Assembly (NCBI GenBank): GCA_964652195.1
Contig: CAZZBB010000012.1
Span: forward strand, 36,537 to 100,536
Length of the DNA stretch: 64,000 bases
Direction of reading: 5' to 3'
Origin: an uncultured bacterium
GTDB lineage: Bacteria; Poribacteria; WGA-4E; WGA-3G
In this document: piece after piece, positions 1,032-27,982 of the stretch
Position numbering within the stretch: position 1 is the stretch's first letter
How the letters are laid out: every line of letters starts with the position of its first letter
Made by a program: the position numbers and the translations under genes
The notes under the pieces: generated by a model
What the model was told of the DNA's origin: nothing
Seen by the model: the letters and a program-made list of their open reading frames with translations, nothing else
The model's database searches: none

Positions 1032-1512
1032 GACTCCTTAATAACTTTAATAGTCCTAAAAAATGATGTTTCTTTCATCATTTATATAATCATCTTGATT
1101 AGAAAATGTAATATATATTGATTTTACAACACATATAAAACGATAGTGATTCTGATTTAGTTGCATTTTCAGTCCAAGAATTATAGATTAATTAATGATT
1201 CTGAACCTATTCAGTTCGATATAAATATAATTATGACTTATAAAGCTATGAAAACTCCGTATTACAAATTTTATGCGAATTATGATTTATTGAATAGTAT
1301 GGTTATGGTATAATCTCAATGTTTAAATGGTTGTATGTATTCATAAGCAAAATAACTATGTATGCAACGATTGAGAATTAATAGAATTAAACTTAATTAA
1401 CGAATACAGGTCAAAACTATTAACTTCATAATAGCATATTACCAATAGGGGTATATTTTATATGTTTAATTTATATATCAATCGAGGAGATAATAGGGGA
1501 ATTGGTATATGT

Positions 1513-2733
1513 ATGCAAATTATAATCTTTTGCTTTTTATTATTTGTAGTTATACCTATTAGTGCTGATACTGAATCTGAAAAAAGTCCTATAAAGATTG
1601 GTGGTGCAATGCGGGTTAATTACGTATACGGTACATACGGTGATGAAGATAATCCACATCGCAGAGGAGATAAAATCGGAGATGTGGATCTTGAACTATT
1701 TAGGTTAAATTCTGATCTTGACTATCACAATTTAATTAGTAGAATTGAATACCGATGGTATGATAACTATAGTTTTTTTCACACTGCATGGTTAGGGTAT
1801 AATTTGGACAAGTTAGGAACCCTGAAGGCTGGAATTGTGCGAGTACCGTTCGGACCGACTGCTTACGGAGTATCAACAAGTTGGTTTTTTGACCAACATT
1901 TTTATGTTGGACTTGCTGATGACCCGGATATAGGAATCAGATGGAGTAATACTTATGATAAGTTAAGCTTGGATTTAGGTTACTTTTATGGTAGTGAATT
2001 CCAGACGGATGGTGATAGCCTTAATAGTTCACGATATGGTTATGACATAGTTAAATGGAAAGAAAAAGTTGATAGTAATGGAAAGGTTGAATGGGGTGCC
2101 GGTGAAAATGGATATGATGAAAGGCATCAACTTAACCTACGCACAATCTATAGTATTGATAATATTGGAGATATAGGTTTATCTTTTCAATACGGAATGT
2201 TGATTGGGACGGATGTAGGAGAGGATGATAGTGGGAATCACTATGCTGTCTCCGGTCATATGAAAAATACTATCTCTGATATTACACTCTTTTCTCAATT
2301 CTCTTATTATACACATAATATCTCTGATGAAACTCCGTGGAGTACCGGTGATCTAATTCCTATGGGGGCATACGATTTTGCATGGCCCGTTGCATCTACA
2401 GGATTGATACCAGCATTATCTTTGAGATATGGTGGTATAGACACCTCAAGTATCTCATGGATGGACAGTGTTACACCTTATATTGAATGGAGTACCATCC
2501 TAAAAACTGTAGAGGATTATAATAGCAGTACTTTGGTAACTCTTGGTGCAAGTTGGACATTATTTACTGCTTTATATGTCTATAGTGATTTTGGTCTTAC
2601 AGACGGAAACTTCTTCGTTGGGAATACAGATGATGATTATAATAATATACTGACTGGATTAAATCATGTTGGTGCCAATGGAAATAACAGTTGGCATTGG
2701 CGTCTAAATTTCAATTTTGGATATTATTTCTAA
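1513..2733 (+). CDS. Putative outer-membrane beta-barrel porin
   Basis: A signal-like N-terminus (MQIIIFCFLLFVVIPISA|D) follows internal Met 1513; the ORF track starts at 1462. Amphipathic beta-strand character runs throughout, and the C-terminus is aromatic (NFNFGYYF). It lies directly upstream of the BCCT transporter. Confidence 0.5.
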   Translation: MQIIIFCFLLFVVIPISADTESEKSPIKIGGAMRVNYVYGTYGDEDNPHRRGDKIGDVDLELFRLNSDLDYHNLISRIEYRWYDNYSFFHTAWLGYNLDKLGTLKAGIVRVPFGPTAYGVSTSWFFDQHFYVGLADDPDIGIRWSNTYDKLSLDLGYFYGSEFQTDGDSLNSSRYGYDIVKWKEKVDSNGKVEWGAGENGYDERHQLNLRTIYSIDNIGDIGLSFQYGMLIGTDVGEDDSGNHYAVSGHMKNTISDITLFSQFSYYTHNISDETPWSTGDLIPMGAYDFAWPVASTGLIPALSLRYGGIDTSSISWMDSVTPYIEWSTILKTVEDYNSSTLVTLGASWTLFTALYVYSDFGLTDGNFFVGNTDDDYNNILTGLNHVGANGNNSWHWRLNFNFGYYF

Positions 2734-2801: not shown

Positions 2802-4445
2802 ATGCACGAAGAAGAAAAACAGCCACAGCAGATGCCACACCAAATTGATGTAGGCAATTACAAGAAATTATTCGGATTAGAGATCTACCTTACACCTGTG
2901 TTTGTAATTTCCAGTATTTCCATTGTACTTTTTATCATTGGTTCACTTATCTTTCAAGAAAGTGCAACAAAATTATTTGGAAATCTCAGAGTCTGGCTTA
3001 CGACCAACCTTGATTGGTTGTTTATGGGAACAGCGAATATCGTCTTTCTACTTTGTTTGTTTGTTGCCATATCACCCCTTGGAAAGATTAGGTTAGGTGG
3101 TAAAGATGCTAAACCTGAGTATTCTAAGATTACTTGGCTGGCAATGCTCTTTGCAGCTGGAATTGGAATTGGTCTTCTATTTTTTGGTGTGTTAGAACCG
3201 GTCACCTACTATCAAAGTCCTCCACTTGGTGAAAGTACTGTCTATGATACAGATACTGTCTATACTACTGAAAATGCCCCTGATATCTCAGATCCGATCG
3301 TACAAAAAGCAAGTTCATTGGGTTTGGCTGCAACAGTCTTTCACTGGGGTCTACAAGGTTGGGCAATTTATGGTGTGGTAGGACTGGCATTAGGGTTTTA
3401 TGCCTATAATCGAGGATTACCGCTCCTAATTCGTTCTGCATTTTATCCTATATTTGGTGATCGTATATGGGGTTGGACAGGACATATCATTGATACTCTC
3501 GCCATATTTGCTGGTATTTTCGGTCTGGCAACCTCTCTCGGTTTGGGAGTTCAACAAGTAACCTCTGGACTTAACTACCTATTTGATATTCCTGCAAATA
3601 CACTCTCAATGGTGTTATTAATTGTAGTAATAACATCTATCGCACTTGTATCTGTGATGACAGGTATTAATGTAGGAATCAAGAGGTTGAGCCAGTTCAA
3701 TATAATACTTGCTTTTATCTTATTATCAGTAGTATTCATTCTGGGTCCAACAAGTTATATATTCAGAAGCGTATTCGCAAGTCTTGGAACTTATATAATG
3801 AAGATTGTTCCACTGAGTAACTGGATTGGTCGTGAGGACACTGGTTTTCTACATGGATGGACTACATTCTATTGGGCATGGTGGATTGCATGGGCACCTT
3901 TCATAGGGACATTCATCGCAAGAATCTCAAAAGGGCGTACAGTTCGTCAATTCGTTATCTTTGTTCTCCTTTTACCAACATTATTATGTTTAATCTGGTT
4001 TAGTACTTTTGGTGGAACTGCTTTTCATCAATTCTTCACAGAAGGATACACCGAAGTAACAGAGATTGTTGAGGCATATAAACCGGAACTTGCACTGTAT
4101 GCAATGTTTAAAGGACTGCCTTGGCCGACACTGCTATCCTGTATAGGTATGTTGTTAACCATTATCTTTTTTGTCACCTCATCCGACTCTGGATCACTGA
4201 TAATTGATATCATAGCTGCCGGTGGAAAGGTTGATGCTCCGATACCACAACGTGTATTTTGGTGTACAGTTGAAGGGTTAATTGCTATCTCACTATTACT
4301 GGGTGGTGGATTAACTGCACTACAAGCAGCGTCACTTGTAAGTGGCTTCCCATTTGCGATTGTCCTGTTAGGAATGGGAGCGTGTGTCTTGTATGGATTA
4401 ATTCAAGAATTGCAGAAATTAAAGAATGAGGAAAGAGAATTATAA
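2802..4445 (+). CDS. BCCT family transporter (betaine/carnitine/choline type)
   Basis: 547 aa polytopic. Contains the BCCT signature region WGLQGWAIYGVVGLALGFYAYNRGLPLLIRSAF and a Trp-rich TM8 region. An AGGAG RBS sits at 2783. Confidence 0.85.
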   Translation: MHEEEKQPQQMPHQIDVGNYKKLFGLEIYLTPVFVISSISIVLFIIGSLIFQESATKLFGNLRVWLTTNLDWLFMGTANIVFLLCLFVAISPLGKIRLGGKDAKPEYSKITWLAMLFAAGIGIGLLFFGVLEPVTYYQSPPLGESTVYDTDTVYTTENAPDISDPIVQKASSLGLAATVFHWGLQGWAIYGVVGLALGFYAYNRGLPLLIRSAFYPIFGDRIWGWTGHIIDTLAIFAGIFGLATSLGLGVQQVTSGLNYLFDIPANTLSMVLLIVVITSIALVSVMTGINVGIKRLSQFNIILAFILLSVVFILGPTSYIFRSVFASLGTYIMKIVPLSNWIGREDTGFLHGWTTFYWAWWIAWAPFIGTFIARISKGRTVRQFVIFVLLLPTLLCLIWFSTFGGTAFHQFFTEGYTEVTEIVEAYKPELALYAMFKGLPWPTLLSCIGMLLTIIFFVTSSDSGSLIIDIIAAGGKVDAPIPQRVFWCTVEGLIAISLLLGGGLTALQAASLVSGFPFAIVLLGMGACVLYGLIQELQKLKNEEREL

Positions 4446-4543: not shown

Positions 4544-4582
4544 ATATATAGGCATGGTTTCATACCGTGCCTATATATTTTA
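4544..4582 (+). terminator. Rho-independent terminator downstream of the BCCT gene
   Basis: ATATATAGGCATGG / CCGTGCCTATATAT forms a 14-bp stem with one G.U pair and a 7-nt loop, followed by TTTT. Confidence 0.6.
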
Positions 4583-5643: not shown

Positions 5644-6267
5644 ATGTCTAATTTACGTATTCAAAAGGCAGTATCTGCTTTAAGAACTGGCGGTATCATT
5701 GCAATTCCTACGGATACTGTTTATGGTTTGGGGGTAGATGCATTTAATGCTGATGCAATCCAAAAGTTATATACCATAAAAGGTAGACCAGAAGAAAAAC
5801 CGATACCTTTAGTTCTTGGGTCAGTTGATGATGTTACTAAAGTTGCACAGAATATCCCTGGTTTCTTTTATCATCTAATAAAAAAATATTGGCCAGGTGG
5901 TTTAACAATTATTGTTGAATCTAAAAATCTATTACCCCAACTAACTGCCGGTGGGAATACCGTTGGAATACGTATCCCAAATCATGGCCTCTTATTAGAA
6001 ATACTCCATGAATTTGGTGGACCGATGGCTATCACAAGTGCCAATTTATCAGGAGATGCTGCCTCTACCTCACCTCAGGAATTGGGTCTTGAATTGACCA
6101 ATAAACTTGATTATATTGTCGATGATGGTAAGACTCCAGGACCTATCCCGTCCACTGTCTACGATATCTCAATTTCTCCTCCATTAATACGTCGTGAAGG
6201 AATTATATCAGAAGAAACACTCAATATGGAATACGCGTGTTACAACAGACTTTTAAAGAAATCTTAA
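5644..6267 (+). CDS. tsaC: L-threonylcarbamoyladenylate synthase (YrdC/Sua5 family)
   Basis: Shows PTDTVYGLGVDAFNADAIQKLYTIKGRPEEKPIPLVL and a YrdC fold of about 200 aa. It lies adjacent to tsaD. Confidence 0.8.
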   Translation: MSNLRIQKAVSALRTGGIIAIPTDTVYGLGVDAFNADAIQKLYTIKGRPEEKPIPLVLGSVDDVTKVAQNIPGFFYHLIKKYWPGGLTIIVESKNLLPQLTAGGNTVGIRIPNHGLLLEILHEFGGPMAITSANLSGDAASTSPQELGLELTNKLDYIVDDGKTPGPIPSTVYDISISPPLIRREGIISEETLNMEYACYNRLLKKS

Positions 6268-6821
6268 AATTCCTTGCATCACCAAATGGAATTTGGTTTA
6301 TGCTTAGTTTAGGATGTGTTATAGCTTTATTATACCTATACTATAGATGGAAACAAATACCTGGTCTGACAGTGGAATTAATTAAGGATGATACATGGTT
6401 TATCAATCGAGATGACAATAACAAACTGGCAATCATTATATCACTACATTTGACAAATAAGTCAAGTTCACCAATTCAAATGCATAGATGTAAATTAAGT
6501 GGATATACCCCAAAAATGCCTCCTGAACAGATGTTTTTAGAAGGATATGATAAAACAGTCGAATTAGTTCTACCTAAATATGATTCATATTCTGAGATAG
6601 TCGGTAAATCTGAAAATATTACTTCATCCTATGTTCTTAATCCATATACCGAGCAAAGAATGTGGGTTTATTATGAATCTGGTATTGTAACCTTGACAAA
6701 CATATTACGTGCTCCAATTGTGATTAAAGATCTAAATGGAAAACGTAAATCTCTTCAAGTGGCTGTACCTCGAAATATGGAACAGATTCAACTTTATCGT
6801 GAAGCGGCAATGCGATGGTAA
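6237..6821 (+). CDS. Hypothetical protein with N-terminal TM helix
   Basis: 194-aa ORF overlapping the tsaC 3' end. One hydrophobic segment (IWFMLSLGCVIALLYLYY). No recognisable motif. Confidence 0.4.
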   Translation: MLQQTFKEILKFLASPNGIWFMLSLGCVIALLYLYYRWKQIPGLTVELIKDDTWFINRDDNNKLAIIISLHLTNKSSSPIQMHRCKLSGYTPKMPPEQMFLEGYDKTVELVLPKYDSYSEIVGKSENITSSYVLNPYTEQRMWVYYESGIVTLTNILRAPIVIKDLNGKRKSLQVAVPRNMEQIQLYREAAMRW

Positions 6822-6947
6822 CACGGAAATTTAAATCCTTCAAGAAAATCCTTATTCGTACATACTAAACTCCAATTATAACCCAAATTATTTGCCATTT
6901 TATCAGGTGTATGGTATCCTATATCTTCAAGGAGGAGTACCAAACCT

Positions 6948-7706
6948 GTGGAATCAATAAGTGGTATCTCGAATGAATTTATTCGAGAAGAAATTGAAGA
7001 ATATCTTGAGCGTCCTGAAGAAAAAGACAGATTTGTTGATATGTTTTCGGCTGCCTCTTCAAAGATGCAAGATATTGCAGCTGCATTAATAGATGGGGAT
7101 CATCATACAGTTGATGAGTTAACCGAGCAAGCACTTGATGATGGAATTGAAGCATTGGAGGTAATGGATGATGGTCTTATCTTAGGTATGGGTATAGTTG
7201 GTATAAAATTCAGAGAGAATGTTATATTTGTTCCTGAAGTTCTTGCCTGTGCACGCGCAATGAAGGCTGGAATGAACCACATTGAACCAATTCTATCAGA
7301 TTCTGGGATAGACCCTATAGGCACTGTTATAATGGGAACAGTGAAAGGGGATTTACATGATATTGGTAAAAACCTGTGTATTATGATGCTAAGAGGAGCA
7401 GGATTCGTGGTTCATGATTTGGGAGTGGATACATCTGTAGATGAATTTTTGGATGCAGTTGAGGAATTTGAAGCACCTATATTAGGAATGTCTGCATTGC
7501 TAACAACAACCATGCCAAACATGGGGAAGACTATTGATGCATTTATTGATGAGGATTTACGCGAAGAGGTAAAGATCATGGTTGGTGGGGCACCAGTAAC
7601 ACAGACATTCGCTGATGATATGGGTGCTGATGGTTATGGTAAAGATGCATTAGAATGTGTTGCCTTAGCAAAAGAATTTCTTCAAGAAACAGATGATGAC
7701 TGGTAG
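6948..7706 (+). CDS. Corrinoid (B12)-binding protein of the MtbC/MttC/MtgC type
   Basis: The N-terminal helical B12-binding_2-like region is followed by a Rossmann B12 domain. That domain carries DxHxxG (GDLHDIGKN) and MLRGAGF...LGVD...SALLTTT. Confidence 0.8.
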   Translation: MESISGISNEFIREEIEEYLERPEEKDRFVDMFSAASSKMQDIAAALIDGDHHTVDELTEQALDDGIEALEVMDDGLILGMGIVGIKFRENVIFVPEVLACARAMKAGMNHIEPILSDSGIDPIGTVIMGTVKGDLHDIGKNLCIMMLRGAGFVVHDLGVDTSVDEFLDAVEEFEAPILGMSALLTTTMPNMGKTIDAFIDEDLREEVKIMVGGAPVTQTFADDMGADGYGKDALECVALAKEFLQETDDDW

Positions 7707-7721
7707 TTTCTATCTTAGTAT

Positions 7722-9626
7722 ATGAAAAAAGTTGATAAAAAAGAGTATGAAAAAAGACTCAACAAAATCACTGAGATTTTTGAAGAGCTTGTAGTTCATG
7801 CCGATGAACAAGCGACCTATCGCTGTCCATACAAGGACAGAAATGACCATTGTACCGCTAAATTTGGATGTCGAAATCAACGAAAAATTGATAAAGGTAC
7901 AGGGTTAAAATGTGTTGGTGACGATAAATTAGACTACCGTACAGCATGGGAAACAGAAAAATCTGCAATCACGGAAACATTAATCGAGAAGACTAACGCT
8001 ACTATTTCCTGCGACGGTAAATTTTATCAACTAACACCAGGAAAAACTGTCTTCGATTATGCTGATGATTTAGCAGTTCAAGTTCCTACATCCTGTTTCC
8101 GTACAGGACAATGTCATGAGTGTATTGTGGAAATTAAAAGCGGTATGGATAGTTTGCGACCCCCTAACGAGGTGGAAGCTTTCCTCCGAGAAAACTATCG
8201 TTTAGCCTGCCAATCTGTTGTTCTTGATGTTGATCAAGATATAGAATTTGCTCCACTCCGTCGTTCCCCCCGCATACTTACCCAAACTACATCAGAACAA
8301 GATAAATTAGAACACATCAACCCATTTGTTACCCACCAAGATGGGACAGTATACTATAAAAATGAACCCGTAGATAAATTTCGAGGACATATCTATGGTT
8401 TAGCTATAGATATTGGTACAACAACTGTCGTGGCTAGTCTTGTTGATTTAGAAAATGGTAAGGACGTTTCTGTGAGTTCATTTGAAAATCCACAGCGTTT
8501 TGGTGGTAGTGACATAATGCACCGTATTTCATACGATGCAGAGTTTGAAGGGGAATTGAGAAAATCCTTATTGGCTGCATTAAATAGTGAAATTATGGAG
8601 ATGTGTGAGAGATTAGATATTGTTCGACAGGAGATTTATGAAATTGTGGTTGCTGGCAATACTACAATGAGAGACATCTTCTTTAGACAGGATGTTCAGA
8701 GTATAGGTCAAAAACCGTATAAATCCATTATTGAACATGAGCTTAATGATGGGTTGCGTATGAGTACTTCACTAACTGAAAAATCTCGTCGTCTTGGGAT
8801 AAGATCTAATCCGAAGGCAATGGTTTATAGTTTACCATTAATAGCGAGTCACGTTGGTGCTGATGTAGCAGCAGATCTGATTGCAATGGATATGCTAAAT
8901 CAAGATGATATTGTCATGTTAGTAGATGTAGGAACAAATACTGAAGTAATTGTTGGTAATAAAGACCGAATGGTGGCGGCCTCGTGTCCTGCTGGTCCTG
9001 CGTTTGAGGGTGGTGGCATAGAATATGGAATGCCAGCTTATCCTGGAGCAATCGAATCAATTAGATTGAATAATGAAGAAATTGATTATCGAACAGTAGA
9101 TGATGAAAAACCTGAAGGATTTTGTGGGTCAGGATTAATTTCATTACTTGCTGAGTTATTACGTACTAATCAGATGAATCCAAAAGGGGTCTTTGCAGAT
9201 AAAAAGCAAAAGATATTATCTATTTTACCTGAATATGGGATTACTTTCTCACGTGAGGATGCAAGTAATTTAGCCCAAGCTAAGGCCGCGAATTATTGTG
9301 GTCAGTATATCGTACTAAGACAGTTCGGTGTATCCCCAAAAGAAATCAGCAGACTGTATTTAGCTGGTGGATTCGCAAATTTTGTAGATTCTGGTGAGGC
9401 AATTGATATCGGGTTTCTGGCACCAGTTCCTGAAGAACGAATAGAAAAAATTGGTAATGCAGCCTTAGCAGGAGCAAAGTCAGTGTTACTATCTAAGGAA
9501 AAACGTCAAGAAATAGAGGCATTAGTCAAAAACATAGAGCATATTGAACTTGAAACAACATCTGACTTTTTTGATGTTTTTGTTGAGGGTTGTCAATTTA
9601 AACCTATGCCTAAGGATATAAGTTAG
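7722..9626 (+). CDS. RamA/RACo-like reductive activase of corrinoid proteins (2Fe-2S ferredoxin + ASKHA ATPase, DUF4445)
   Basis: The N-terminal Cys cluster is CRNQRK...C...CFRTGQCHEC...LACQ. An ASKHA/actin-fold region follows (GLAIDIGTTTV, VDVGTNTEV). It sits immediately after the corrinoid protein. Confidence 0.7.
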   Translation: MKKVDKKEYEKRLNKITEIFEELVVHADEQATYRCPYKDRNDHCTAKFGCRNQRKIDKGTGLKCVGDDKLDYRTAWETEKSAITETLIEKTNATISCDGKFYQLTPGKTVFDYADDLAVQVPTSCFRTGQCHECIVEIKSGMDSLRPPNEVEAFLRENYRLACQSVVLDVDQDIEFAPLRRSPRILTQTTSEQDKLEHINPFVTHQDGTVYYKNEPVDKFRGHIYGLAIDIGTTTVVASLVDLENGKDVSVSSFENPQRFGGSDIMHRISYDAEFEGELRKSLLAALNSEIMEMCERLDIVRQEIYEIVVAGNTTMRDIFFRQDVQSIGQKPYKSIIEHELNDGLRMSTSLTEKSRRLGIRSNPKAMVYSLPLIASHVGADVAADLIAMDMLNQDDIVMLVDVGTNTEVIVGNKDRMVAASCPAGPAFEGGGIEYGMPAYPGAIESIRLNNEEIDYRTVDDEKPEGFCGSGLISLLAELLRTNQMNPKGVFADKKQKILSILPEYGITFSREDASNLAQAKAANYCGQYIVLRQFGVSPKEISRLYLAGGFANFVDSGEAIDIGFLAPVPEERIEKIGNAALAGAKSVLLSKEKRQEIEALVKNIEHIELETTSDFFDVFVEGCQFKPMPKDIS

Positions 9627-9644
9627 AGGAAAGAGTTATAATAA

Positions 9645-10640
9645 GTGTTAGATTTTCGTGAACGTTTAAATCTTGATATTCCTATTTTATATGATGGTGG
9701 TTTCGGTTCACAGTTATTTGCCCGGAATATTCAACTTGCTAATAGTGCGATAGCAAATGAATCACATCCTAACGATGTAGTTGGTATTCATTCTGATTAT
9801 ATTATTGCTGGTGCGGAAGCGATTGGAACAAATACTTTTGTCGTTTCTCCGCTTCACCTTGAAATAACAGATCAAGATGAATCTGAGGCTGAACGTCTAA
9901 CTCGACTTGCAGTGCAGCATGCAAAGTCTGCAGTAGAAAAACACGAAAAACATGTATATATCTCAGGTTCGGTAGGTCCATCCCCTGGCGCAATAGAGGC
10001 AGATAGCGGAGATACGACATTTGGTATTGCAAATGATAAAGTTCGTGAAGCTCATAAACTTGTTATCAATACGCTTGTAGATGAAGGGGTTGATTTTCTA
10101 TGTTTAGAAACAATGTTTTCTGCTAAAGAAGCTGCAATTGCTGTTGATATAGCAAGAGAAACAGGTCTACCAATAGCTGTAAATTTAACATATAAATGGA
10201 CAAAAGAACGTCGAACTGGGCAGGAAATATATAAGACAGACTGGGGACATAGTGCTCTTAACCTACTCGAAATTCTATCAAGTGGGGAGTTTTCCAATGG
10301 CGACTCACTTGTGGATTATGTTGATATAATAGGCTTAAATTGTGGTGCTGAATCTAAACTTGACGAACATACTGGCATGCCTTATGCAATCAAGGGTACA
10401 GAACAACTTAGAGATGCCATGATAAGTATGGGTATTAAGGGTAAAAAGATGATGGCATATCCCAACGCTGGAATGCCTATTCTTGATAAGGACTATAAAA
10501 CTGTATATACGCAAACACCAGCGGACATGGCAAAATATGTACCTGAATTAGTAGATGTTGGTGCATACTTTATTGGTGGATGCTGTGGGACAACTTCCAG
10601 TCACATTGCTGCATTCAGAAAAAGTATGGATTCACTATAG
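9645..10640 (+). CDS. Homocysteine S-methyltransferase (Pfam S-methyl_trans) domain protein, putative methylcorrinoid:thiol methyltransferase
   Basis: GTG start. ILYDGGFGSQL parallels MetH/BHMT ILDGxMGTxL. HSDYIIAGAEAIGTNTF parallels MetH HxxYxxAGADIIETNTF. The Zn-ligand motifs GLNCG and GGCCGTT are present. Confidence 0.7.
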   Translation: MLDFRERLNLDIPILYDGGFGSQLFARNIQLANSAIANESHPNDVVGIHSDYIIAGAEAIGTNTFVVSPLHLEITDQDESEAERLTRLAVQHAKSAVEKHEKHVYISGSVGPSPGAIEADSGDTTFGIANDKVREAHKLVINTLVDEGVDFLCLETMFSAKEAAIAVDIARETGLPIAVNLTYKWTKERRTGQEIYKTDWGHSALNLLEILSSGEFSNGDSLVDYVDIIGLNCGAESKLDEHTGMPYAIKGTEQLRDAMISMGIKGKKMMAYPNAGMPILDKDYKTVYTQTPADMAKYVPELVDVGAYFIGGCCGTTSSHIAAFRKSMDSL

Positions 10641-10799
10641 TCTCTCAAATTTTTTCTATATACGATATAACTAAATACTGGTTGTACCTATCTTTACTAC
10701 TATTTGGGTAAATAAACACAGAGTTACAATTTCACATTTAATCTTGTTAATCCAACAACCATAGTTATATGTCCTGATTATTAATTTACGATACATAAC

Positions 10800-11414
10800 A
10801 TGTATACCCGTATAAAAATCTGTGGAATTACTAACCTAAAAGATGCCATCGGTGCAGTTGAAGCTGGAACAGATGCTCTCGGTTTTATTTTCGTTCCTGA
10901 AACTCCACGTTATATTGAACCTTTAGATGCTTTTGAGATTATCCAGTCCATTCCACCATTTATATCAACTGTAGGTATTTTTAAAGATGAAGAAAAACCA
11001 TTTATTCATAGAATTGTTAGTGAAACAGGTATTACTTATATTCAACTACACGGATCCGAAACACCAGAATTTTGTGAGGATTTCAGTCTACCAGTTATTA
11101 AGGTTTTTGAATTTAATGAGAAATCTAACCTTAAGATATTAGATACATATAATGTCAACGCACATCTTCTGGATAAACCAAAATCTACTAAAGGAATAGT
11201 AAACTGGAGTATAGCTTTGTCTGCTAAACGATATTCCAATAGGTTGATACTTGCAGGAGGACTAACACCAGAGAATGTATCTGAAGCAATCCAATATGTT
11301 AAACCCTATGCTGTTGATGTTGCAAGTGGGGTAGAACACGAAATAGGTATAAAAGATCATTGTAAAATGATTAGATTCATTCAGGAAATCAGAAAAGCTG
11401 AAATACATATTTGA
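10800..11414 (+). CDS. trpF: Phosphoribosylanthranilate isomerase
   Basis: Shows KICGIT, AGTDALGFIFVPETPRYI, VGIF, IQLHGSE, VDVASGVE..GIKD. Confidence 0.7.
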   Translation: MYTRIKICGITNLKDAIGAVEAGTDALGFIFVPETPRYIEPLDAFEIIQSIPPFISTVGIFKDEEKPFIHRIVSETGITYIQLHGSETPEFCEDFSLPVIKVFEFNEKSNLKILDTYNVNAHLLDKPKSTKGIVNWSIALSAKRYSNRLILAGGLTPENVSEAIQYVKPYAVDVASGVEHEIGIKDHCKMIRFIQEIRKAEIHI

Positions 11415-11435
11415 GTAGTAGATACGGAGAAAACA

Positions 11436-11942
11436 GTGTCTGAAAAAATTACACTAACTTATAAGAGATTACCTGATCGAATTAATTACTTTGAACAGAT
11501 ACTACTGTATGAAAATGATGATATTATAATAACAACACAGAAAATCTGTCCATCTTCTCCAATTATATTTAATGGTCAGGAGGTATTAGCAGATAATTTT
11601 ACTGCTATTTGGTTTGTATTCACAGGGTTATGGTATGATATTGGAAAAATCTACAATCTTGATAGTGAATGGACAGGATATTATTGTGATATAATATTGC
11701 CAGTCACCAGAAGTAAAACTAAATTTGAGATTGTAGATTTATTCTTAGATTTGTGGATATCTCCTGACGGTGGTTATGCCATTCAAGATGAAGACGAATT
11801 CGAGGAAGCGGTAAAGAATGGAGTCATATCTGATGAAGTTGCCGATAAAGCAAGAAGTACTTTGGATTTTCTGATTGAGGAAGTCACTGAGGAAAACTTT
11901 CCTCCAAAAGTTGTAAAAGACTATATAATTCAAATATCATAA
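11436..11942 (+). CDS. DUF402 (FomD-like nucleoside phosphatase fold) family protein
   Basis: Shows YCDIILP....DLFLDLWISPDGGYAIQDEDEFEEAV, which matches the DUF402 pattern. Confidence 0.55.
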   Translation: MSEKITLTYKRLPDRINYFEQILLYENDDIIITTQKICPSSPIIFNGQEVLADNFTAIWFVFTGLWYDIGKIYNLDSEWTGYYCDIILPVTRSKTKFEIVDLFLDLWISPDGGYAIQDEDEFEEAVKNGVISDEVADKARSTLDFLIEEVTEENFPPKVVKDYIIQIS

Positions 11943-12042
11943 TTTTGATTTTCTACCACATATTATACTGATGTTTTATATAATATTCATACAATTAAAC
12001 TATTTCTAACCATATAATTTAGAGTTAACACTGGAGTTAATT

Positions 12043-13251
12043 ATGTCCATTTTAGCAATAAATGGTGGTGAACCAGTAAGAGATAAATCTTTTCCATCTT
12101 GGCCTACTCTTAATCCTAAGGATTTAGAAGTATTCGAGAGTATTTATAATAGTAAAGTTTGGGGAGTTGGAGGTAAGCAAGTTCCTGAGTTTTCTAATAG
12201 TTTCGCCGAATTCCAGGGTGCAAAATATGGCGTTTGTGTTAATAGTGGCACAACAGCTCTCTATCTTGCTTTAAAGGCTGCAGATGTTGGACGGGGTGAT
12301 GAAGTAATTACAACTGCATACACCTTTCAGGCTACAATCGTAGCTATTTTAATGACGCATGCAATCCCTGTTTTTGTGGATACTTCACCAGATAGTTTTT
12401 TGATTGATGCGTCAAAAGTGGAAGACGCAGTTAATGATAGAACAAAGGCAATCCTCCCAGTACATATTGCTGGATATCCTGCAGATATGGATTCAATTAT
12501 TGAAATTGCAGCAAAACATAATGTACGAGTAATTGAAGATTGCGCACAGGCACATGGTGCTGAATGGCGTGGAAAAGGAGTAGGTAGCTGGGGAGATTTT
12601 GGGTGTTTTAGTTTTCAATCATCAAAAAACCTCTGTGCCGGTGAAGGAGGAATTGTCCTGATGAATGATCGGGAGTTGTATGAACGAGTGTATTCTCTAC
12701 ACAACTGTGGACGTACAACTCCTAATGCTGAATATGGTAATATCGAACCTTTTGGTGCGAATTTCAGAATGACAGAATGGCAAGCAGGAATTCTAATTTC
12801 CAGATTAACAAGACTTGAAAGTGAAACAAACCACAGACACATGAATATGCGTTGGTTAGATGGTTGGTTTGGTGAAATTCCTGGTATTAAAGTAACACCT
12901 CTTGATCCACGGGCGACTCGAGGTGGTTCACACGGATACAAAGCTATTTTTGATTCAGAGGAATTTGAGGATATATCTCGAGCTACATTCATTAATGCTA
13001 TGCGTGCTGAAGGTATTCCTATCGGGTATTGGTATAGTACTCCTATGTATCGTTCTACTTTTCTTGATACAAATACATTTGGTGACAAACTGGATTTTTC
13101 TAACACAAACTGTCCTGAGACAGAAAGAATATGTCAATCTGGTCTTGCTTTAGGTCAGAATGTATTAATGGGAACAGAAGAGGATATGGAAGATATTGTA
13201 AAAGCAGCAATAAAAATAAGGCGGAATGCTGGGGAATTAAAGGAAGGATAA
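12043..13251 (+). CDS. DegT/DnrJ/EryC1/StrS family PLP-dependent aminotransferase
   Basis: Shows GDEVITTAYTFQAT, PVHIAGYPADMD and the SxK Lys region FQSSKNL, with a fold of about 400 aa. Confidence 0.8.
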   Translation: MSILAINGGEPVRDKSFPSWPTLNPKDLEVFESIYNSKVWGVGGKQVPEFSNSFAEFQGAKYGVCVNSGTTALYLALKAADVGRGDEVITTAYTFQATIVAILMTHAIPVFVDTSPDSFLIDASKVEDAVNDRTKAILPVHIAGYPADMDSIIEIAAKHNVRVIEDCAQAHGAEWRGKGVGSWGDFGCFSFQSSKNLCAGEGGIVLMNDRELYERVYSLHNCGRTTPNAEYGNIEPFGANFRMTEWQAGILISRLTRLESETNHRHMNMRWLDGWFGEIPGIKVTPLDPRATRGGSHGYKAIFDSEEFEDISRATFINAMRAEGIPIGYWYSTPMYRSTFLDTNTFGDKLDFSNTNCPETERICQSGLALGQNVLMGTEEDMEDIVKAAIKIRRNAGELKEG

Positions 13252-25306: not shown

Positions 25307-25606
25307 GAAGATACATGAAGTAGTATTATTTTTCTAAATTGATGCCATTAGATATAACATTACTGATAGTGGTGGCAAAAAGCACACGCTTGTAATTGGT
25401 CGCAGTATATATGCAAGGGTTAATGGTAAATGGAAGTATCAGACAGGTTAGTGGTTAGAAGCTAAAAAAATTAAAAAATGGTTTGACAAGCATAGCAGCA
25501 ATTAACTACACTATATTAGGTTTTGATACAATTACGGAGCAAAATAAGCGTAGGTTCAGCAAGAACCTACGCTTATTATAGTGCTTTGCAAAACCAGAGG
25601 TTTCAC

Positions 25607-26107
25607 ATGAAATATCAATTGGTAATCCAAGACCTTAGTATACCGGTGCCAGGTGTACCTTCGTGGAGTATACCCTTATGTTCTAACCATAACGTTTACT
25701 TTGGTTGCTTAGGGCATATAGCCGAGGAGGATATAAAAACAAACCGTATAGATAGCCAATTTTATAATGGAGAAGATACAGCTATCGTCTTAGATATTGA
25801 TATAGATGCCAAAGTCGTGAGACACACCTGTTTGGCCCGTAAAAAAGAGACGACTGTGCAGTCAACAGTGGCGTTGGGTATAGGTGATGATATAGTGGAT
25901 GCGGGGGCTAAATTCACAGTAGGTCAGACGACGTATATAGCGATAACCGAGAGTGTAAAAGAGACGGTTAATACCCCTGTGGTTTCGCTAAGAGATAGTG
26001 TATATGCCGGCGTAGATTTTGATCGTCGTGCGCTATGCTCTGCCCACGCGGATTTTGATTTTGAGGGCAATGATTTTGACGAAGGTTCGGTCTGGTATCA
26101 GCCTTGA
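25607..26107 (+). CDS. Hypothetical protein
   Basis: An internal ATG at 25607 follows an AGAGG RBS; the ORF track starts at 25523, but a strong hairpin at 25544-25575 falls inside that longer ORF. No recognisable domain. It is the first gene of the GC-richer island. Confidence 0.4.
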   Translation: MKYQLVIQDLSIPVPGVPSWSIPLCSNHNVYFGCLGHIAEEDIKTNRIDSQFYNGEDTAIVLDIDIDAKVVRHTCLARKKETTVQSTVALGIGDDIVDAGAKFTVGQTTYIAITESVKETVNTPVVSLRDSVYAGVDFDRRALCSAHADFDFEGNDFDEGSVWYQP

Positions 26108-26172
26108 ATAACTTTTAGATGCGACTTGGCACCCCGGTTTATACTGTCGGGGTACCCTAAAGTAGAATTCCC

Positions 26173-27792
26173 ATGAGAATAAAACATGCTTTTACAATAC
26201 TTTTTGTTATCCTCTTTGGCATTAGTGTTTTTATCTTTTTACGAAGTTCTAATGTCCTTCCCAATGGTGATAAACTTGTCTTTCTCAATGGTGATAAACT
26301 GAAACCGAGAACTCCGGATGGTCCTGTCTCCACGTTAGAAAAAGCGGCGCGTGTGGCGTTGCATCCACTCGCAGCAGATTGGAAAACAGTTGAAGCAGCA
26401 ATGAAGCAGCGTGTTTTATCTTGGGAGGATTGGGCTCGGAAAACAGTTGAAATCGGGTGTGCGATGGACGTGCTGTATGGACATATAAACACCCCTGAAG
26501 AGGTTGCAGCGGCACGCGAAAAACAGTTAGCGATACAACTGAAATGGGCTGCCGACTGTGAATCTAGAGGGTCTATTCTTCCTAACTATCCTTTTGAGAT
26601 TCCGAAGGTTTCCCCTAAGAAGCGGTTTGACTACGAAGGACCTCAGACGAGCGAAGCACTGCTGGCAGCGTTTGATCGGAAGTGGATGGAACGTTATCCG
26701 CAATCGGTGGATTGGGACGCACATTATCCCAAAGCCGCCTGGATTGACCGAATTGTGAGTCTGGGCGGTGAAGTCCAAAGTTACGGCGATTATAGTTTTT
26801 ACCTTAAATTGCGCAGAGACCTTATCAAACACAAAGAGTCCCCGCACAAATGGCATAGTGGGGCGTTCGGTATCCCTCCAACAACGAACTTTGAGGAATA
26901 CGAAACAGGCTATATCAATAGAAAGATTTGGGAAAATGATATACGCAAAGAGGTTCGCTCTAACTACCCTGACGAGCCCAAGATTACAACCTATTTCCCC
27001 AGTGATCAACCTGATAAATACCTTCCTGTAGTAGGTAACATGACGTATGTCTACAGAAAGCCGAATAGCAGTGCAGTGAGAACCTATGGTAAATTGCTGA
27101 CTGATGAAGAGGTAAAGGACCTGAGAAATAAAGGCATAGAACCGAAGGATGTTGAAATTGTCTACATTGATGACGAATACAATGTCCTTACCGAAAAACC
27201 GAAACCCTATAACCATCAAGAGTGGTTAGAAAAAAACTCTTATGACATTGTCCCCGAAGGACTCCGTGCGCCGGATGGCACCATCGTGTCCCCTGAGCGT
27301 TATCAGGAAATAAGAGGTCAAGAGATGCCTTATGAGACGCGGCAAAGGTATGATGAATATATCGGTGATTCCCCTGCTGCTGTGGATCCTGCTGCTGCTG
27401 AGGCGGAACGCCGAGCCGTATTAACCCGCGAAGCTGCCCGTGCGGAATTTGAACGATTTAAAGAGGATATGCGCCAAATAGAAAAGTTTCAGTCTATGGC
27501 AGCAAACGAGGTATCCCGTAAGTTTGCGTTGGAGTTTCTGTCTCAATACACGCCGAAGTCCGCCACGGATAAACGGCTCCAAACGGCACTGCAAACGATG
27601 TTTCAACGTGGGTTTGATGACGGGCTGCACAGCCTGCGAAAAGACGACCCTGCCCTGGCAGCAGAGTTAGAACGGCAGCTTGCCGAAACATACAGACCAC
27701 CACAACCGCAGTTGCGACGACTAAAGACCGTGCCCCAAAAGACCGTGCCCCCTAATCCAGCGGAGACACCTCCCGCAGGGGATACGGACTAA
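26173..27792 (+). CDS. Hypothetical 539-aa protein with N-terminal membrane anchor
   Basis: Long ORF with about 50% GC and a hydrophobic N-terminus (AFTILFVILFGISVFIFL). The antisense strand also carries long ORFs, as expected for GC-rich DNA. No motif recognised. Confidence 0.5.
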   Translation: MRIKHAFTILFVILFGISVFIFLRSSNVLPNGDKLVFLNGDKLKPRTPDGPVSTLEKAARVALHPLAADWKTVEAAMKQRVLSWEDWARKTVEIGCAMDVLYGHINTPEEVAAAREKQLAIQLKWAADCESRGSILPNYPFEIPKVSPKKRFDYEGPQTSEALLAAFDRKWMERYPQSVDWDAHYPKAAWIDRIVSLGGEVQSYGDYSFYLKLRRDLIKHKESPHKWHSGAFGIPPTTNFEEYETGYINRKIWENDIRKEVRSNYPDEPKITTYFPSDQPDKYLPVVGNMTYVYRKPNSSAVRTYGKLLTDEEVKDLRNKGIEPKDVEIVYIDDEYNVLTEKPKPYNHQEWLEKNSYDIVPEGLRAPDGTIVSPERYQEIRGQEMPYETRQRYDEYIGDSPAAVDPAAAEAERRAVLTREAARAEFERFKEDMRQIEKFQSMAANEVSRKFALEFLSQYTPKSATDKRLQTALQTMFQRGFDDGLHSLRKDDPALAAELERQLAETYRPPQPQLRRLKTVPQKTVPPNPAETPPAGDTD

Positions 27793-27982
27793 ATGAAGCA
27801 TCTGATACATTGGAGCAGCCTCGTGCTGCTCCTTATCGGGGTGCGGACTACTTCTATAGCCGGACCACTACAGACGTAGCTTCTCTGTGAGTACGTCACT
27901 GGGATGAGATAGACGTGGCGGCTATCCAAAGAGACTATCAACCTTAGAGACAGAAGAACAGATATCAGAGTATCTGCTGTGG

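What the first reader, a model, noticed from the sequence alone, without database searches (positions are those of the whole stretch)
6948..10640. Corrinoid protein + RamA-type activase + Zn/Hcy-domain methyltransferase, with no substrate methyltransferase in cis
Three consecutive genes encode the following.
- An MtgC/MttC-like cobalamin-binding protein with DxHxxG.
- A ferredoxin-ASKHA RamA-like ATP-dependent reductive activase.
- A protein whose whole length is a homocysteine-S-methyltransferase (MetH N-terminal/BHMT) domain, with intact GLNCG and GGCCGTT Zn ligands.
Known bacterial MttB-superfamily systems (MtgB, MtcB, MtpB and related) hand the methyl group to a pterin-binding MtgA/MtqA. 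Here the acceptor half is a thiol (Hcy-type) methyltransferase. This suggests a split, RamA-reactivated methionine-synthase-like route from a methylated substrate to methionine. The methyl-donor methyltransferase (MttB-like or pterin-binding) is not present in the window.
Basis: partly seen in the sequence, partly recalled or inferred. Interest (0 to 1): 0.7.

Follow-up and report, generated by a model that had tools for sequence, protein, structure and literature searches.

The report
Split methionine synthase, folate module missing
Three adjacent genes in a Poribacteria genome encode the vitamin-B12 carrier, its ATP-driven repair enzyme and the homocysteine-methylating part of a methionine synthase built from separate proteins; this kind of system is already known from marine Alphaproteobacteria, and here the part that fetches the methyl group is not encoded nearby.

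Summary
Window 6948-10640 (+) holds a tight three-gene unit. It encodes a B12-binding corrinoid protein (DxHxxG), a 2Fe-2S/RACo-type (RamA-like) activase, and a 331-aa protein that is entirely a PF02574 homocysteine-methyltransferase barrel with the Zn cysteines and homocysteine-binding residues intact. No pterin-binding, MttB or MtaA-type methyltransferase lies in the 64 kb.

The trio is conserved in 52 loci of one Poribacteria clade. Deeper-branching relatives carry a longer operon: unknown 211-aa protein, MtaA/CmuA-type methyltransferase, corrinoid protein, activase, methylene-THF reductase, pterin-binding methyltransferase, PF02574 protein. So a pterin-binding gene is a recurrent partner in relatives. 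The window trio is a reduced form of a split cobalamin-dependent methionine synthase.

That kind of system, including RamA-like reactivation and a link to methylated osmolytes, is already published (Price 2018; Mausz 2025). Its "no folate partner" twist is undermined by the sister operons.

One question is unresolved: is the MTHFR/pterin pair elsewhere in this genome, or lost? Verdict: a new member of a known kind, in a new phylum, with a distinct and narrow PF02574 subfamily.

The parts
6822..6947 (+). Intergenic leader upstream of the corrinoid-protein gene. It has an AGGAGG ribosome-binding site about 10 nt before the GTG start. No riboswitch was found.
   Evidence: Sequence read. Rfam gathering scan of the whole window found nothing. 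The promoter-like site at 6892-6920 is no better than chance.
6948..7706 (+). Corrinoid (B12-binding) protein, 252 aa: a B12-binding cap domain plus a Rossmann B12-binding domain. This is the methyl-carrier hub.
   Evidence: PF02607 1.1e-20 and PF02310 6e-27. Best NCBIfam models are MtgC-type corrinoid proteins, below cut-off. 45.5% identical to the MtgC homologue in the Sinorhizobium MtgBCDE-type cluster. 85-100% identical across the 52 trio loci.
7350..7367 (+). DxHxxG motif (DLHDIG, aa 135-140) of the corrinoid protein. This is the His-on lower-ligand motif of MetH-type B12 domains.
   Evidence: Motif search. SxL (aa 182-184) and VGG (aa 212-214) follow it.
7722..9626 (+). RACo/RamA-type reductive activase, 634 aa. 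Domain order: N-terminal Cys4 extension, 2Fe-2S ferredoxin domain, RACo middle domain, ASKHA ATPase domain.
   Evidence: Fer2 5.3e-7, Raco_middle 2.8e-42, RACo_C_ter 2.7e-69. AcsV model 309 bits and RamA model 133 bits, both below cut-off. Cys motif CFRTGQCHEC (8094-8123) and ASKHA phosphate motifs DIGTTT (8409-8426) and DVGTNT (8925-8942).
7722..7990 (+). Conserved N-terminal extension of the activase, about 85-90 aa, with invariant His26, Cys35, Cys44, Cys50 and Cys64 (RCPYK...CTAKFGC...C.GDD..DYR.AWE). It matches no Pfam family.
   Evidence: Alignment A4 of six lineages. No Pfam match even at E=1. It is called as a separate small ORF in L103 and L105.
9645..10640 (+). Stand-alone homocysteine S-methyltransferase-domain protein, 331 aa. 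This is the Hcy-binding/methyl-acceptor module of the split methionine synthase.
   Evidence: PF02574 8.9e-50 over residues 15-327. Best solved relatives by sequence are MetH Hcy domains (1q7m, 5.1e-20). AlphaFold model pLDDT 95.6. Best Foldseek matches are MetH Hcy domains at TM 0.77, against 0.74 for BHMT and 0.69-0.71 for MmuM.
9693..9701 (+). DGG motif (aa 17-19). It corresponds to the homocysteine-binding fingerprint of BHMT/MetH.
   Evidence: D17 and G18 are invariant in alignment A1 with E. coli MetH, human BHMT and Sinorhizobium MtgE. Coordinates. The functional assignment comes from published BHMT/MetH structures (own knowledge).
10104..10115 (+). LETM (aa 154-157). Glu155 aligns with BHMT Glu159, the homocysteine amino-group ligand. 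It is followed by Thr, as in MetH and MtgE, not by the betaine-site Tyr160 of BHMT.
   Evidence: Alignment A1. Coordinates.
10332..10346 (+). GLNCG (aa 230-234). Cys233 is the first Zn ligand and aligns with E. coli MetH Cys247 and BHMT Cys217.
   Evidence: Invariant column in A1, and in A3 and A5.
10575..10595 (+). GGCCGTT (aa 311-317). Cys313 and Cys314 are the second and third Zn ligands and align with MetH Cys310/311 and BHMT Cys299/300.
   Evidence: Invariant columns in A1, A3 and A5.

Best explanation
The three genes encode the cobalamin half and the homocysteine half of a methionine synthase built from separate proteins.

**Proposed mechanism.**
1. The corrinoid protein carries cobalamin. 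Its Co(I) form accepts a methyl group from a methyl-donor methyltransferase encoded elsewhere.
2. The PF02574 protein binds homocysteine as a Zn-thiolate and takes the methyl group from methyl-Co(III). This gives methionine and regenerates Co(I).
3. When Co(I) is accidentally oxidised to Co(II), the 2Fe-2S/ASKHA activase uses ATP and a low-potential electron to reduce it back. This replaces the SAM-dependent reactivation domain of classical MetH.

**Likely methyl donor.** In related lineages the donor module is a pterin-binding methyl-THF:corrinoid methyltransferase. It is encoded, together with methylene-THF reductase, inside the same operon. The window's trio is a reduced version of that operon. 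The most likely donor here is still 5-methyl-THF, through a pterin-binding protein in trans.

**Shown versus inferred.** Shown: domain content, catalytic residues, operon conservation, and the operon's extended form in relatives. Inferred: every chemical step, the direction of methyl flow, and the identity of the donor in this genome.
For: - **Domains, motifs and tight spacing:**
- **Catalytic residues:** the Zn triad and the Hcy-binding Asp/Glu are invariant with E. coli MetH, human BHMT and the Sinorhizobium MtgE homologue (A1). They are also invariant across 35 family members (A5).
- **Fold:** closest to MetH Hcy domains.
- **Conservation of the trio:** corrinoid protein, activase, Hcy protein in this order in 52 loci. 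Protein identities to the window are 85-100%, 74-100% and 70-100% respectively.
- **Extended operon in relatives:** deeper-branching relatives carry x, MtaA-like, corrinoid protein, activase, MTHFR, pterin-binding protein, Hcy protein.
  - L096: a tight operon whose proteins have the same lengths as here (252, 634 and 331 aa) and are 77%, 66% and 61.5% identical.
  - L071.
  - L103.
  - Twenty-two loci in all have the pterin gene in the cluster.
  - The same operon recurs in soil, peat, freshwater and marine contigs.
- **Modules can be unlinked.** On one 6.49-Mb Poribacteria chromosome, corrinoid protein, activase, MTHFR and pterin protein lie about 165 kb from the Hcy gene (L082 and L104). 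MTHFR-pterin pairs stand alone in many metagenome loci.
- **No classical reactivation domain.** No PF02965 in the window; the E. coli MetH activation-domain seed hit none of the ~170 related loci by tblastn, apart from a full-length metH in L133.
- **Published genetics.** This architecture gives methionine synthase activity in Phaeobacter (PMC5764234) and Ruegeria (PMC12478193). The window corrinoid protein is 45.5% identical to the MtgC homologue of the equivalent Sinorhizobium cluster.
Against: - No pterin-binding gene lies in the 64-kb window or within 10 kb of the trio in any of the 52 trio loci. I could not search the rest of these genomes, so the donor is not identified.
- The Hcy protein is only about 28% identical to the alphaproteobacterial MtgE/Bmt homologue. 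It belongs to a narrow separate subfamily with two insertions. Orthology to the characterised proteins is therefore not established.
- DUF1638, needed in Phaeobacter, was found in none of the loci.
- There is no methionine-related riboswitch or other regulatory signal.
- The Phaeobacter Hcy module can make methionine directly from DMSP or betaine in vitro, without B12 (PMC12366255). The corrinoid route therefore need not be the only activity.
- There is no experimental evidence for any Poribacteria protein.
Confidence: 0.7

Rival explanations
1. Folate-independent route. In this Poribacteria clade the MTHFR and pterin modules have been lost, not just moved. The corrinoid protein is then methylated by a substrate-specific methyltransferase in trans (MttB-type, MtaA-type or other), using a host- or algal-derived methylated compound such as glycine betaine, choline, carnitine or DMSP. 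The trio would convert such methyl groups directly into methionine.
For: - The trio clade lacks U, F and P in cis in all 52 loci. It forms one contiguous block of leaves in the NJ ordering of the Hcy proteins, while deeper lineages have the full operon.
- Osmolyte-type transporters lie upstream. A BCCT transporter sits here and in L015 and L018-L020. A TRAP binding protein plus a GcvT-family protein sits upstream in about 25 other loci.
- There is precedent: MtgB methylates MtgC in Ruegeria, and MtgE draws on the same hub (PMC12478193).
- Three loci have MtaA-like, corrinoid protein, activase, Hcy protein with no pterin gene.
Against: - No MttB gene in the window (Pfam); a tblastn seed found none in any of the ~170 loci.
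- BCCT is separated from the trio by a strong terminator-like hairpin, by tsaD, tsaC and one more gene.
- Synteny inside one phylum is weak evidence of function.
- Unlinked MTHFR-pterin pairs are common, so relocation is at least as likely as loss.
- My attempt to infer loss from contig-length matching proved unreliable.
Confidence: 0.2
2. Cofactor-independent enzyme. The PF02574 protein works alone as a betaine-, DMSP- or S-methylmethionine:homocysteine methyltransferase (BHMT/Bmt/MmuM-like). Its position next to the corrinoid protein and activase would be a historical remnant.
For: - P. inhibens Bmt, the Hcy module of a split MetH, makes methionine from DMSP and betaine in vitro without THF or B12 (PMC12366255).
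- The fold search separates MetH, BHMT and MmuM only marginally (TM 0.77, 0.74 and 0.69-0.71).
- In 17 loci the gene has no corrinoid-protein or activase gene in the fetched sequence (a few are short or cut contigs).
Against: - BHMT betaine-site residues are not conserved. Tyr160 is Thr here, as in MetH. Tyr77 is Val. Trp44 has no counterpart (A1).
- The corrinoid protein and a 634-aa ATP-dependent activase are kept intact and highly conserved next to the gene in 52 loci. That is hard to explain if they were useless.
- Where the operon is complete, the gene sits directly after the pterin-binding gene.
Confidence: 0.08
3. Reverse flow. The PF02574 protein acts as the methyl-donor enzyme. It demethylates methionine or another thioether onto the corrinoid protein, for transfer to another acceptor.
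For: - Zn-dependent methyltransferases of corrinoid systems can be bidirectional. MtgD is proposed to be bidirectional (PMC12478193).
- No acceptor or donor partner is defined in cis.
Against: - Demethylating methionine onto Co(I) is thermodynamically unfavourable (established MetH chemistry, own knowledge).
- The homocysteine-binding residues are those of methionine-forming enzymes.
- Sister operons pair the gene with MTHFR and a methyl-THF methyltransferase, the anabolic set.
Confidence: 0.02

Closest known systems
Three-part (split) cobalamin-dependent methionine synthase of Phaeobacter inhibens with RamA-like reactivation (Price et al. 2018, PMC5764234)
   Same: - Separate PF02574 protein and separate PF02607+PF02310 B12 protein.
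- Reactivation by a ferredoxin+DUF4445 (RACo/RamA-like) protein instead of the PF02965 domain.
- Genes need not be linked to the pterin-binding module.
   Different: - Here the B12 protein, activase and Hcy protein form one tight operon. In Phaeobacter the activase and the pterin protein are encoded apart.
- No DUF1638 partner was found in any locus.
- The Hcy protein is only about 28% identical to the alphaproteobacterial type (measured against the Sinorhizobium homologue) and carries two insertions.
- The pterin module is not located in this genome.
- There are no genetic data for Poribacteria.
MtgBCDE glycine betaine demethylase / methionine synthase of Ruegeria pomeroyi and relatives (Mausz et al. 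2025, PMC12478193)
   Same: - A corrinoid-protein hub (MtgC) is served by several methyltransferases, with a PF02574 protein (MtgE) as the exit to methionine.
- RamA-type activase.
- mtgE is often not co-located with the donor genes.
- The window corrinoid protein is 45.5% identical to the MtgC homologue of the Sinorhizobium cluster.
   Different: - No MttB-family MtgB anywhere in the window (Pfam) or, by tblastn seed, in related loci.
- In relatives the extra methyltransferase is MtaA/CmuA-type (URO-D fold), not MttB-type.
- Here the Hcy gene, not the donor genes, is the one linked to the hub.
Classical single-chain MetH (E. coli, Thermotoga, Thermus)
   Same: - The Hcy barrel has the same Zn cysteines and Hcy ligands and is the best structural match (TM 0.77).
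- The B12 domain has DxHxxG.
   Different: - Not one polypeptide.
- No folate domain in cis.
- No SAM-dependent activation domain. ATP-dependent RACo-type reactivation takes its place.
BHMT / bacterial Bmt / MmuM (cofactor-independent homocysteine methyltransferases)
   Same: Same PF02574 fold and Zn site. Stand-alone protein of similar size.
   Different: - BHMT betaine-site residues are not conserved.
- The gene is kept beside a corrinoid protein and its activase.
- Sequence and fold scores slightly favour MetH.
Corrinoid methyl-transfer pathways that pair an MtaA/CmuA-type methyltransferase with a pterin-binding methyltransferase and MTHFR (chloromethane CmuA/CmuB/MetF2; methanogen MtaABC). 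Relevant to the sister operons only; the comparison is from my own knowledge.
   Same: Sister operons combine an MtaA-like protein (best PDB hit M. mazei MtaA, 2.5e-51), a corrinoid protein, an activase, MTHFR and a pterin-binding methyltransferase.
   Different: - The window has none of the MtaA-like, MTHFR or pterin genes.
- Those pathways have no PF02574 protein.
- The substrate of the MtaA-like protein is unknown.

Membership tests
Split cobalamin-dependent methionine synthase (three-part MetH / MtgCDE type) | Stand-alone PF02574 protein with the Zn-binding Cys triad and homocysteine-binding residues | tested here: met
   PF02574 8.9e-50 over the whole length. C233, C313, C314, D17 and E155 are invariant with MetH, BHMT and MtgE. 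The fold matches MetH Hcy domains.
Split cobalamin-dependent methionine synthase (three-part MetH / MtgCDE type) | Stand-alone B12-binding protein (cap plus Rossmann domain) with DxHxxG | tested here: met
   PF02607 and PF02310. DLHDIG at aa 135-140. 45.5% identity to the MtgC homologue of the Sinorhizobium cluster.
Split cobalamin-dependent methionine synthase (three-part MetH / MtgCDE type) | Stand-alone pterin-binding (PF00809) methyl-THF:corrinoid methyltransferase in the same genome | tested here: inconclusive
   - Absent from the 64-kb window and from all 52 trio loci within about 10 kb.
- Present inside the cluster in 22 related loci.
- The rest of this genome could not be searched.
Split cobalamin-dependent methionine synthase (three-part MetH / MtgCDE type) | Reactivation by a ferredoxin + DUF4445/RACo (RamA-like) ATP-dependent activase instead of the PF02965 domain | tested here: met
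   Fer2, Raco_middle and RACo_C_ter. ASKHA and 2Fe-2S motifs. No PF02965 in the window (Pfam); no tblastn hit of the MetH activation-domain seed in the related loci, except the full-length metH in L133.
Split cobalamin-dependent methionine synthase (three-part MetH / MtgCDE type) | DUF1638 (PF07796) accessory protein co-occurring with the RamA-like protein | tested here: not met
   No DUF1638 in the window (Pfam). No tblastn hit with the Sinorhizobium DUF1638 seed in any of about 170 loci. It could still be encoded elsewhere in the genome.
Split cobalamin-dependent methionine synthase (three-part MetH / MtgCDE type) | Loss of any component causes methionine auxotrophy | not testable with these tools
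   This needs genetics or heterologous complementation. Poribacteria are uncultured.
MttB-superfamily quaternary-amine systems (MtgBCA, MtcB, MtpB and related) | An MttB-family (PF06253) substrate:corrinoid methyltransferase associated with the corrinoid protein | tested here: not met
   No PF06253 in the window. No tblastn hit with an MttB seed (775-bit Pfam match) in any related locus.
Betaine-homocysteine methyltransferase (BHMT) | Betaine-site residues (human BHMT Trp44, Tyr77, Tyr160; assignment from the literature, own knowledge) | tested here: not met
   Alignment A1 with human BHMT, whose sequence was validated against PDB 8d45. Tyr160 aligns to Thr, Tyr77 to Val, and Trp44 has no counterpart.
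Classical MetH | Single polypeptide with Hcy, folate, cap, B12 and activation modules | tested here: not met
   Three separate ORFs, with no folate or activation module.

The most novel reading that the evidence does not exclude
The main Poribacteria clade, which includes many sponge- and coral-derived MAGs and this window, may have discarded the methylene-THF reductase and the pterin-binding module altogether. It would keep only corrinoid protein, activase and Hcy methyltransferase. Methionine would then be made from a non-folate methyl donor (host- or algal-derived betaine, choline, carnitine, DMSP or similar), through a still unidentified substrate:corrinoid methyltransferase. That would be a dedicated 'methylated metabolite to methionine' corrinoid pathway without a folate link.
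Probability: 0.2. Interest if true: 0.6.

Novelty: new member of a known kind. Interest (0 to 1): 0.35.

Why it matters
- **Wider distribution.** It extends the split, RamA-reactivated methionine synthase from Alphaproteobacteria and a few marine clades to Poribacteria and neighbouring uncultured lineages.
- **A distinct subfamily.** The homocysteine module here belongs to a narrow PF02574 subfamily. Genome annotators label it only as "homocysteine S-methyltransferase family protein", so automated metabolic reconstructions of these symbionts will probably miss a B12-dependent methionine synthase.
- **An uncharacterised operon.** The comparison exposed a widespread seven-gene operon (x, MtaA-like, corrinoid protein, activase, MTHFR, pterin methyltransferase, Hcy methyltransferase). 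Its extra MtaA-like methyltransferase suggests a second entry or exit for methyl groups on the same corrinoid hub.
- **B12 dependence.** The cluster bears on the vitamin-B12 dependence of these bacteria.
- **If the folate module is truly absent.** Methionine supply in this clade would then depend on an external methyl donor, which would be a concrete host-symbiont link.

Tried and rejected
- **Riboswitch or T-box upstream of the trio.** None found; the Rfam gathering scan was empty.
- **Promoter and terminator scan.** Counts were no higher than in shuffled sequence. Only the hairpin after the BCCT gene stands out.
- **Annotated relatives in plasmids and chromids.** The best hit was only 31.6% identical, so there was no direct annotated orthologue. 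This search did give the Sinorhizobium reference cluster.
- **Hidden methyl-donor gene in gaps.** Some trio loci have 3-6 kb gaps between the corrinoid-protein gene or its upstream neighbour and the activase gene (L031-L060). The inserted ORFs look by eye like restriction-modification and DNA-methylase-type genes (DNA-methylase-like motifs; not scanned against Pfam), not corrinoid methyltransferases.
- **Testing for MTHFR-pterin elsewhere in trio-clade genomes.** I tried matching 'longest contig' lengths between the Hcy and pterin hit lists. I rejected this as unreliable, because chromosomes of the clade that does have both genes adjacent also fail to match.
- **Type I mlp clusters (PMC10418091) as the identity of the sister operon.** These are a different gene set and contain no PF02574 or pterin gene.
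- **Poribacteria literature.** Searches on methionine synthase, MttB and betaine gave nothing specific.
- **Function for neighbouring unknown proteins.** The 194-aa upstream protein, the 423-aa porin-like protein, the activase N-terminal extension and the 211-aa 'x' protein have no Pfam match even at E=1.

Full report
**1. What is in the window**

Three ORFs lie head to tail on the + strand, 15 and 18 nt apart:
- 6948-7706, 252 aa
- 7722-9626, 634 aa
- 9645-10640, 331 aa

*Protein 1* has the B12-binding cap and Rossmann domains (PF02607 1.1e-20, PF02310 6e-27). Its DxHxxG motif is DLHDIG at residues 135-140.

*Protein 2* has a 2Fe-2S ferredoxin domain, the RACo middle domain and the RACo ASKHA ATPase domain (5.3e-7, 2.8e-42, 2.7e-69). 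The cysteine motif and both ASKHA phosphate motifs are present.

*Protein 3* is a PF02574 domain from end to end (8.9e-50, residues 15-327).

NCBIfam gives only sub-threshold matches: MtgC-type corrinoid proteins, AcsV/RamA activases, and the homocysteine-methyltransferase part of YitJ, BHMT and MetH.

I scanned the other ORFs of the 64 kb against Pfam. None is a pterin-binding, MttB, URO-D/MtaA, MetH-activation or MetE protein. tblastn with seed proteins for those families also found nothing in the window. No Rfam family, and so no riboswitch, is present.

**2. The homocysteine module**

I aligned the protein with E. coli MetH (fetched), human BHMT (my recalled sequence, confirmed identical to PDB 8d45) and the PF02574 protein of a Sinorhizobium MtgBCDE-type cluster.
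- Asp17-Gly18, Glu155, Cys233 and Cys313-Cys314 are invariant (A1). By the published BHMT and MetH structures (own knowledge), these are the homocysteine-binding residues and the three Zn ligands.
- The residue after Glu155 is Thr, as in MetH and MtgE. It is not the betaine-site Tyr of BHMT. BHMT Tyr77 and Trp44 have no equivalent.
- By sequence, the closest solved structures are MetH Hcy domains (1q7m, 5.1e-20).
- An AlphaFold model built on 35 family members is confident (pLDDT 95.6). It matches MetH Hcy domains slightly better (TM 0.77) than BHMT (0.74) or MmuM (0.69-0.71). That margin is too small to decide the methyl donor.

**3. How widespread and how distinct**

- The protein has hundreds of close relatives at 70-89% identity, named by sources as Candidatus Poribacteria.
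- Among 1.84 billion 50%-identity representatives, only 22 score E<=1e-30, and most are fragments. Scores then fall to ordinary PF02574 proteins at about 35-40% identity.
- The best hit in annotated plasmids and chromids is 31.6% identical.
- It is therefore a narrow, distinct PF02574 subfamily with two insertions relative to MetH, MtgE and BHMT. Its members are found in MAGs labelled Poribacteria, and a few labelled Latescibacterota or Acidobacteriota.

**4. Gene neighbourhoods**

*Loci examined.* I fetched 80 loci from species-representative genomes. I fetched a further 26 loci through exact-protein look-ups. I classified them by tblastn with seed proteins.

*Arrangements found (C = corrinoid protein, R = activase, H = PF02574 protein, U = MtaA-like protein, F = MTHFR, P = pterin-binding protein, x = unknown 211-aa protein):*

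| Arrangement | Loci |
|---|---|
| C-R-H as here | 52, plus 3 cut contigs with R-H |
| P gene in the cluster (with F in all but one, a contig cut just upstream of P) | 22 |
| U-C-R-H | 3 |
| U-C-R-F-P or C-R-F-P, with no H in the locus | 2 |
| H alone | 17 |

In an NJ ordering of the Hcy proteins, the C-R-H loci form one contiguous crown block. No support values were computed.

*The extended operon.* Deeper branches carry a longer cluster.
- The clearest case is marine contig L096: an unknown 212-aa protein, a URO-D-fold protein, a corrinoid protein of 252 aa, an activase of 634 aa, MTHFR with its C-terminal domain, a pterin-binding protein of 348 aa, and a PF02574 protein of 331 aa. The corrinoid protein, activase and Hcy protein are 77%, 66% and 61.5% identical to the window's.
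- L071 has the same set with two inserted genes.
- L103 has the last two genes swapped.
- The URO-D-fold protein passes the NCBIfam cut-offs for the MtaA/CmuA family. Its best solved relative is Methanosarcina MtaA (2.5e-51).
- The pterin-binding protein is closest to methyl-THF:corrinoid methyltransferases.

*Modules can be unlinked.*
- A scan of JGI metagenomes with the pterin-binding protein found the same x-U-C-R-(F)-P-(H) operon in soil, peat, freshwater and marine contigs. It also found many free-standing F-P pairs.
- On one 6.49-Mb Poribacteria chromosome, C-R-F-P lies about 165 kb from H.

The modules are thus shuffled and unlinked freely. The window's trio reads as a reduced operon from which U and F-P have gone.

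**5. Comparison with published systems**

- *Price et al. 2018.* They showed by fitness profiling that Phaeobacter inhibens makes methionine with three separate proteins (PF02574, PF00809, B12-binding). A ferredoxin+DUF4445 RamA-like protein and a DUF1638 protein are needed, in place of the MetH activation domain (PMC5764234).
- *Mausz et al. 2025.* In Ruegeria pomeroyi the B12 protein (MtgC) and the pterin protein (MtgD) are required both for methionine synthesis and for growth on glycine betaine. MttB-family MtgB is the proposed donor and the PF02574 protein MtgE the exit to methionine. mtgE is often unlinked from mtgBCD (PMC12478193).
- *My check of this architecture.* In a Sinorhizobium chromosome I found the PF02574 gene, MttB, the B12 protein, DUF1638, MTHFR, the pterin-binding protein and the start of a RamA-like gene within 16 kb. 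Against that cluster:

| Window protein | Identity to Sinorhizobium counterpart |
|---|---|
| Corrinoid protein | 45.5% |
| Hcy protein | 27.8% |
| Activase | 34% over the part available |

- *Narvaez-Barragan et al. 2025.* The Phaeobacter PF02574 protein alone can form methionine from DMSP or betaine in vitro (PMC12366255). That keeps a cofactor-independent side activity on the table.

**6. Most likely mechanism**

The corrinoid protein cycles between Co(I) and methyl-Co(III). The PF02574 protein transfers the methyl group to Zn-activated homocysteine, giving methionine. The activase repairs Co(II) with ATP and an electron.

By analogy with the sister operons, the donor is probably 5-methyl-THF through a pterin-binding protein encoded elsewhere. 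These steps are inferred from homology and gene context. None is shown for Poribacteria.

Points that weaken the case:
- The donor gene is not located.
- DUF1638 is absent from all loci.
- The Hcy module is not demonstrably orthologous to the characterised ones.

**7. The open question**

I could not search the remainder of any trio-clade genome. An indirect attempt, matching contig lengths between hit lists, proved unreliable.

In it, the trio draws on a methylated substrate rather than folate. Its support is circumstantial:
- A BCCT transporter lies 2.5 kb upstream here. However, it is followed by a strong terminator-like hairpin and three unrelated genes.
- In about 25 other loci, a GcvT-family protein (below the GcvT cut-offs) and a TRAP binding protein precede the trio.

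No MttB gene appears in any locus.

**8. Verdict**

What is new:
- the phylum;
- the distinct Hcy-module subfamily;
- the tight C-R-H operon;
- its derivation from an uncharacterised x-U-C-R-F-P-H operon.

I rate it a new member of a known kind, of moderate interest.

Noticed in passing
window 7722-7990: The activase has a conserved N-terminal extension of about 85-90 aa with invariant His26, Cys35, Cys44, Cys50 and Cys64, ahead of the 2Fe-2S domain. It matches no Pfam family. In L103 (5449-5757) and L105 (6472-6750) it is called as a separate small ORF in front of a shorter activase. It may be an extra metal site.
   Followed up: partly
L096 1839-10062; also L071, L103, L105, L106, L109, L129 and others: A widespread operon: an unknown 211-aa protein, an MtaA/CmuA-family methyltransferase, a corrinoid protein, an activase, MTHFR, a pterin-binding methyltransferase and a PF02574 protein. 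It occurs in Poribacteria relatives and in soil, peat, freshwater and marine metagenomes. The substrate of the MtaA-like protein and the role of the 211-aa protein are unknown. The layout recalls chloromethane (Cmu) and O-demethylase pathways, with a methionine exit added.
   Followed up: partly
L133 (about 10 kb region around 10004-13127): One peat-metagenome contig has x-U-C-R-P next to a full-length classical metH on the opposite strand. This hints that the U-C-R-P part has a role other than methionine synthesis.
   Followed up: no
window 4544-4578: A 15-bp-stem hairpin followed by a T-run lies directly after the BCCT transporter gene (2802-4445). The transporter is therefore probably a separate transcription unit from tsaD, tsaC and the trio.
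   Followed up: no
window 1462-2733: A 423-aa protein with a signal-like N-terminus and a C-terminal aromatic residue, porin-like by eye, has no Pfam or NCBIfam match. It is conserved directly upstream of the BCCT gene in L015 and L018-L020.
   Followed up: no
L003 1089-5389 and about 25 other trio loci: A GcvT-family aminomethyltransferase (below the GcvT equivalog cut-offs) plus TAtT and a DctP-type TRAP binding protein lie immediately upstream of the trio in one Poribacteria subclade. This may be a folate-linked demethylase with its uptake system.
   Followed up: partly
L013 10999-11259; L103 11208-11483; L104 11042-11317; L105 11038-11304: A small ORF of 86-91 aa with PF13769 ('Virulence_fact') follows the last methyltransferase gene of the operon in several lineages. 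It is absent from the window.
   Followed up: no
window 25523-29358: GC content rises from about 0.35 to 0.43-0.48. Four consecutive ORFs (194, 539, 267 and 170 aa) have no Pfam match. The 28-30 kb stretch also has a strong AT skew (0.23).
   Followed up: no
L031, L032, L034, L050, L058, L060 (next to the corrinoid-protein gene: between it and the activase gene, or, in L058 and L060, upstream of it): Insertions of 3-6 kb carrying restriction-modification, DNA-methylase or DUF262-like genes (as judged by eye from the translations, not Pfam-scanned) interrupt the trio in several genomes. The three genes therefore need not be co-transcribed.
   Followed up: partly
window 6237-6821: A 194-aa ORF overlaps the end of tsaC by 31 nt. 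It is conserved (71-86% identity) after tsaD-tsaC in related loci, has an N-terminal hydrophobic segment, and matches no family.
   Followed up: no
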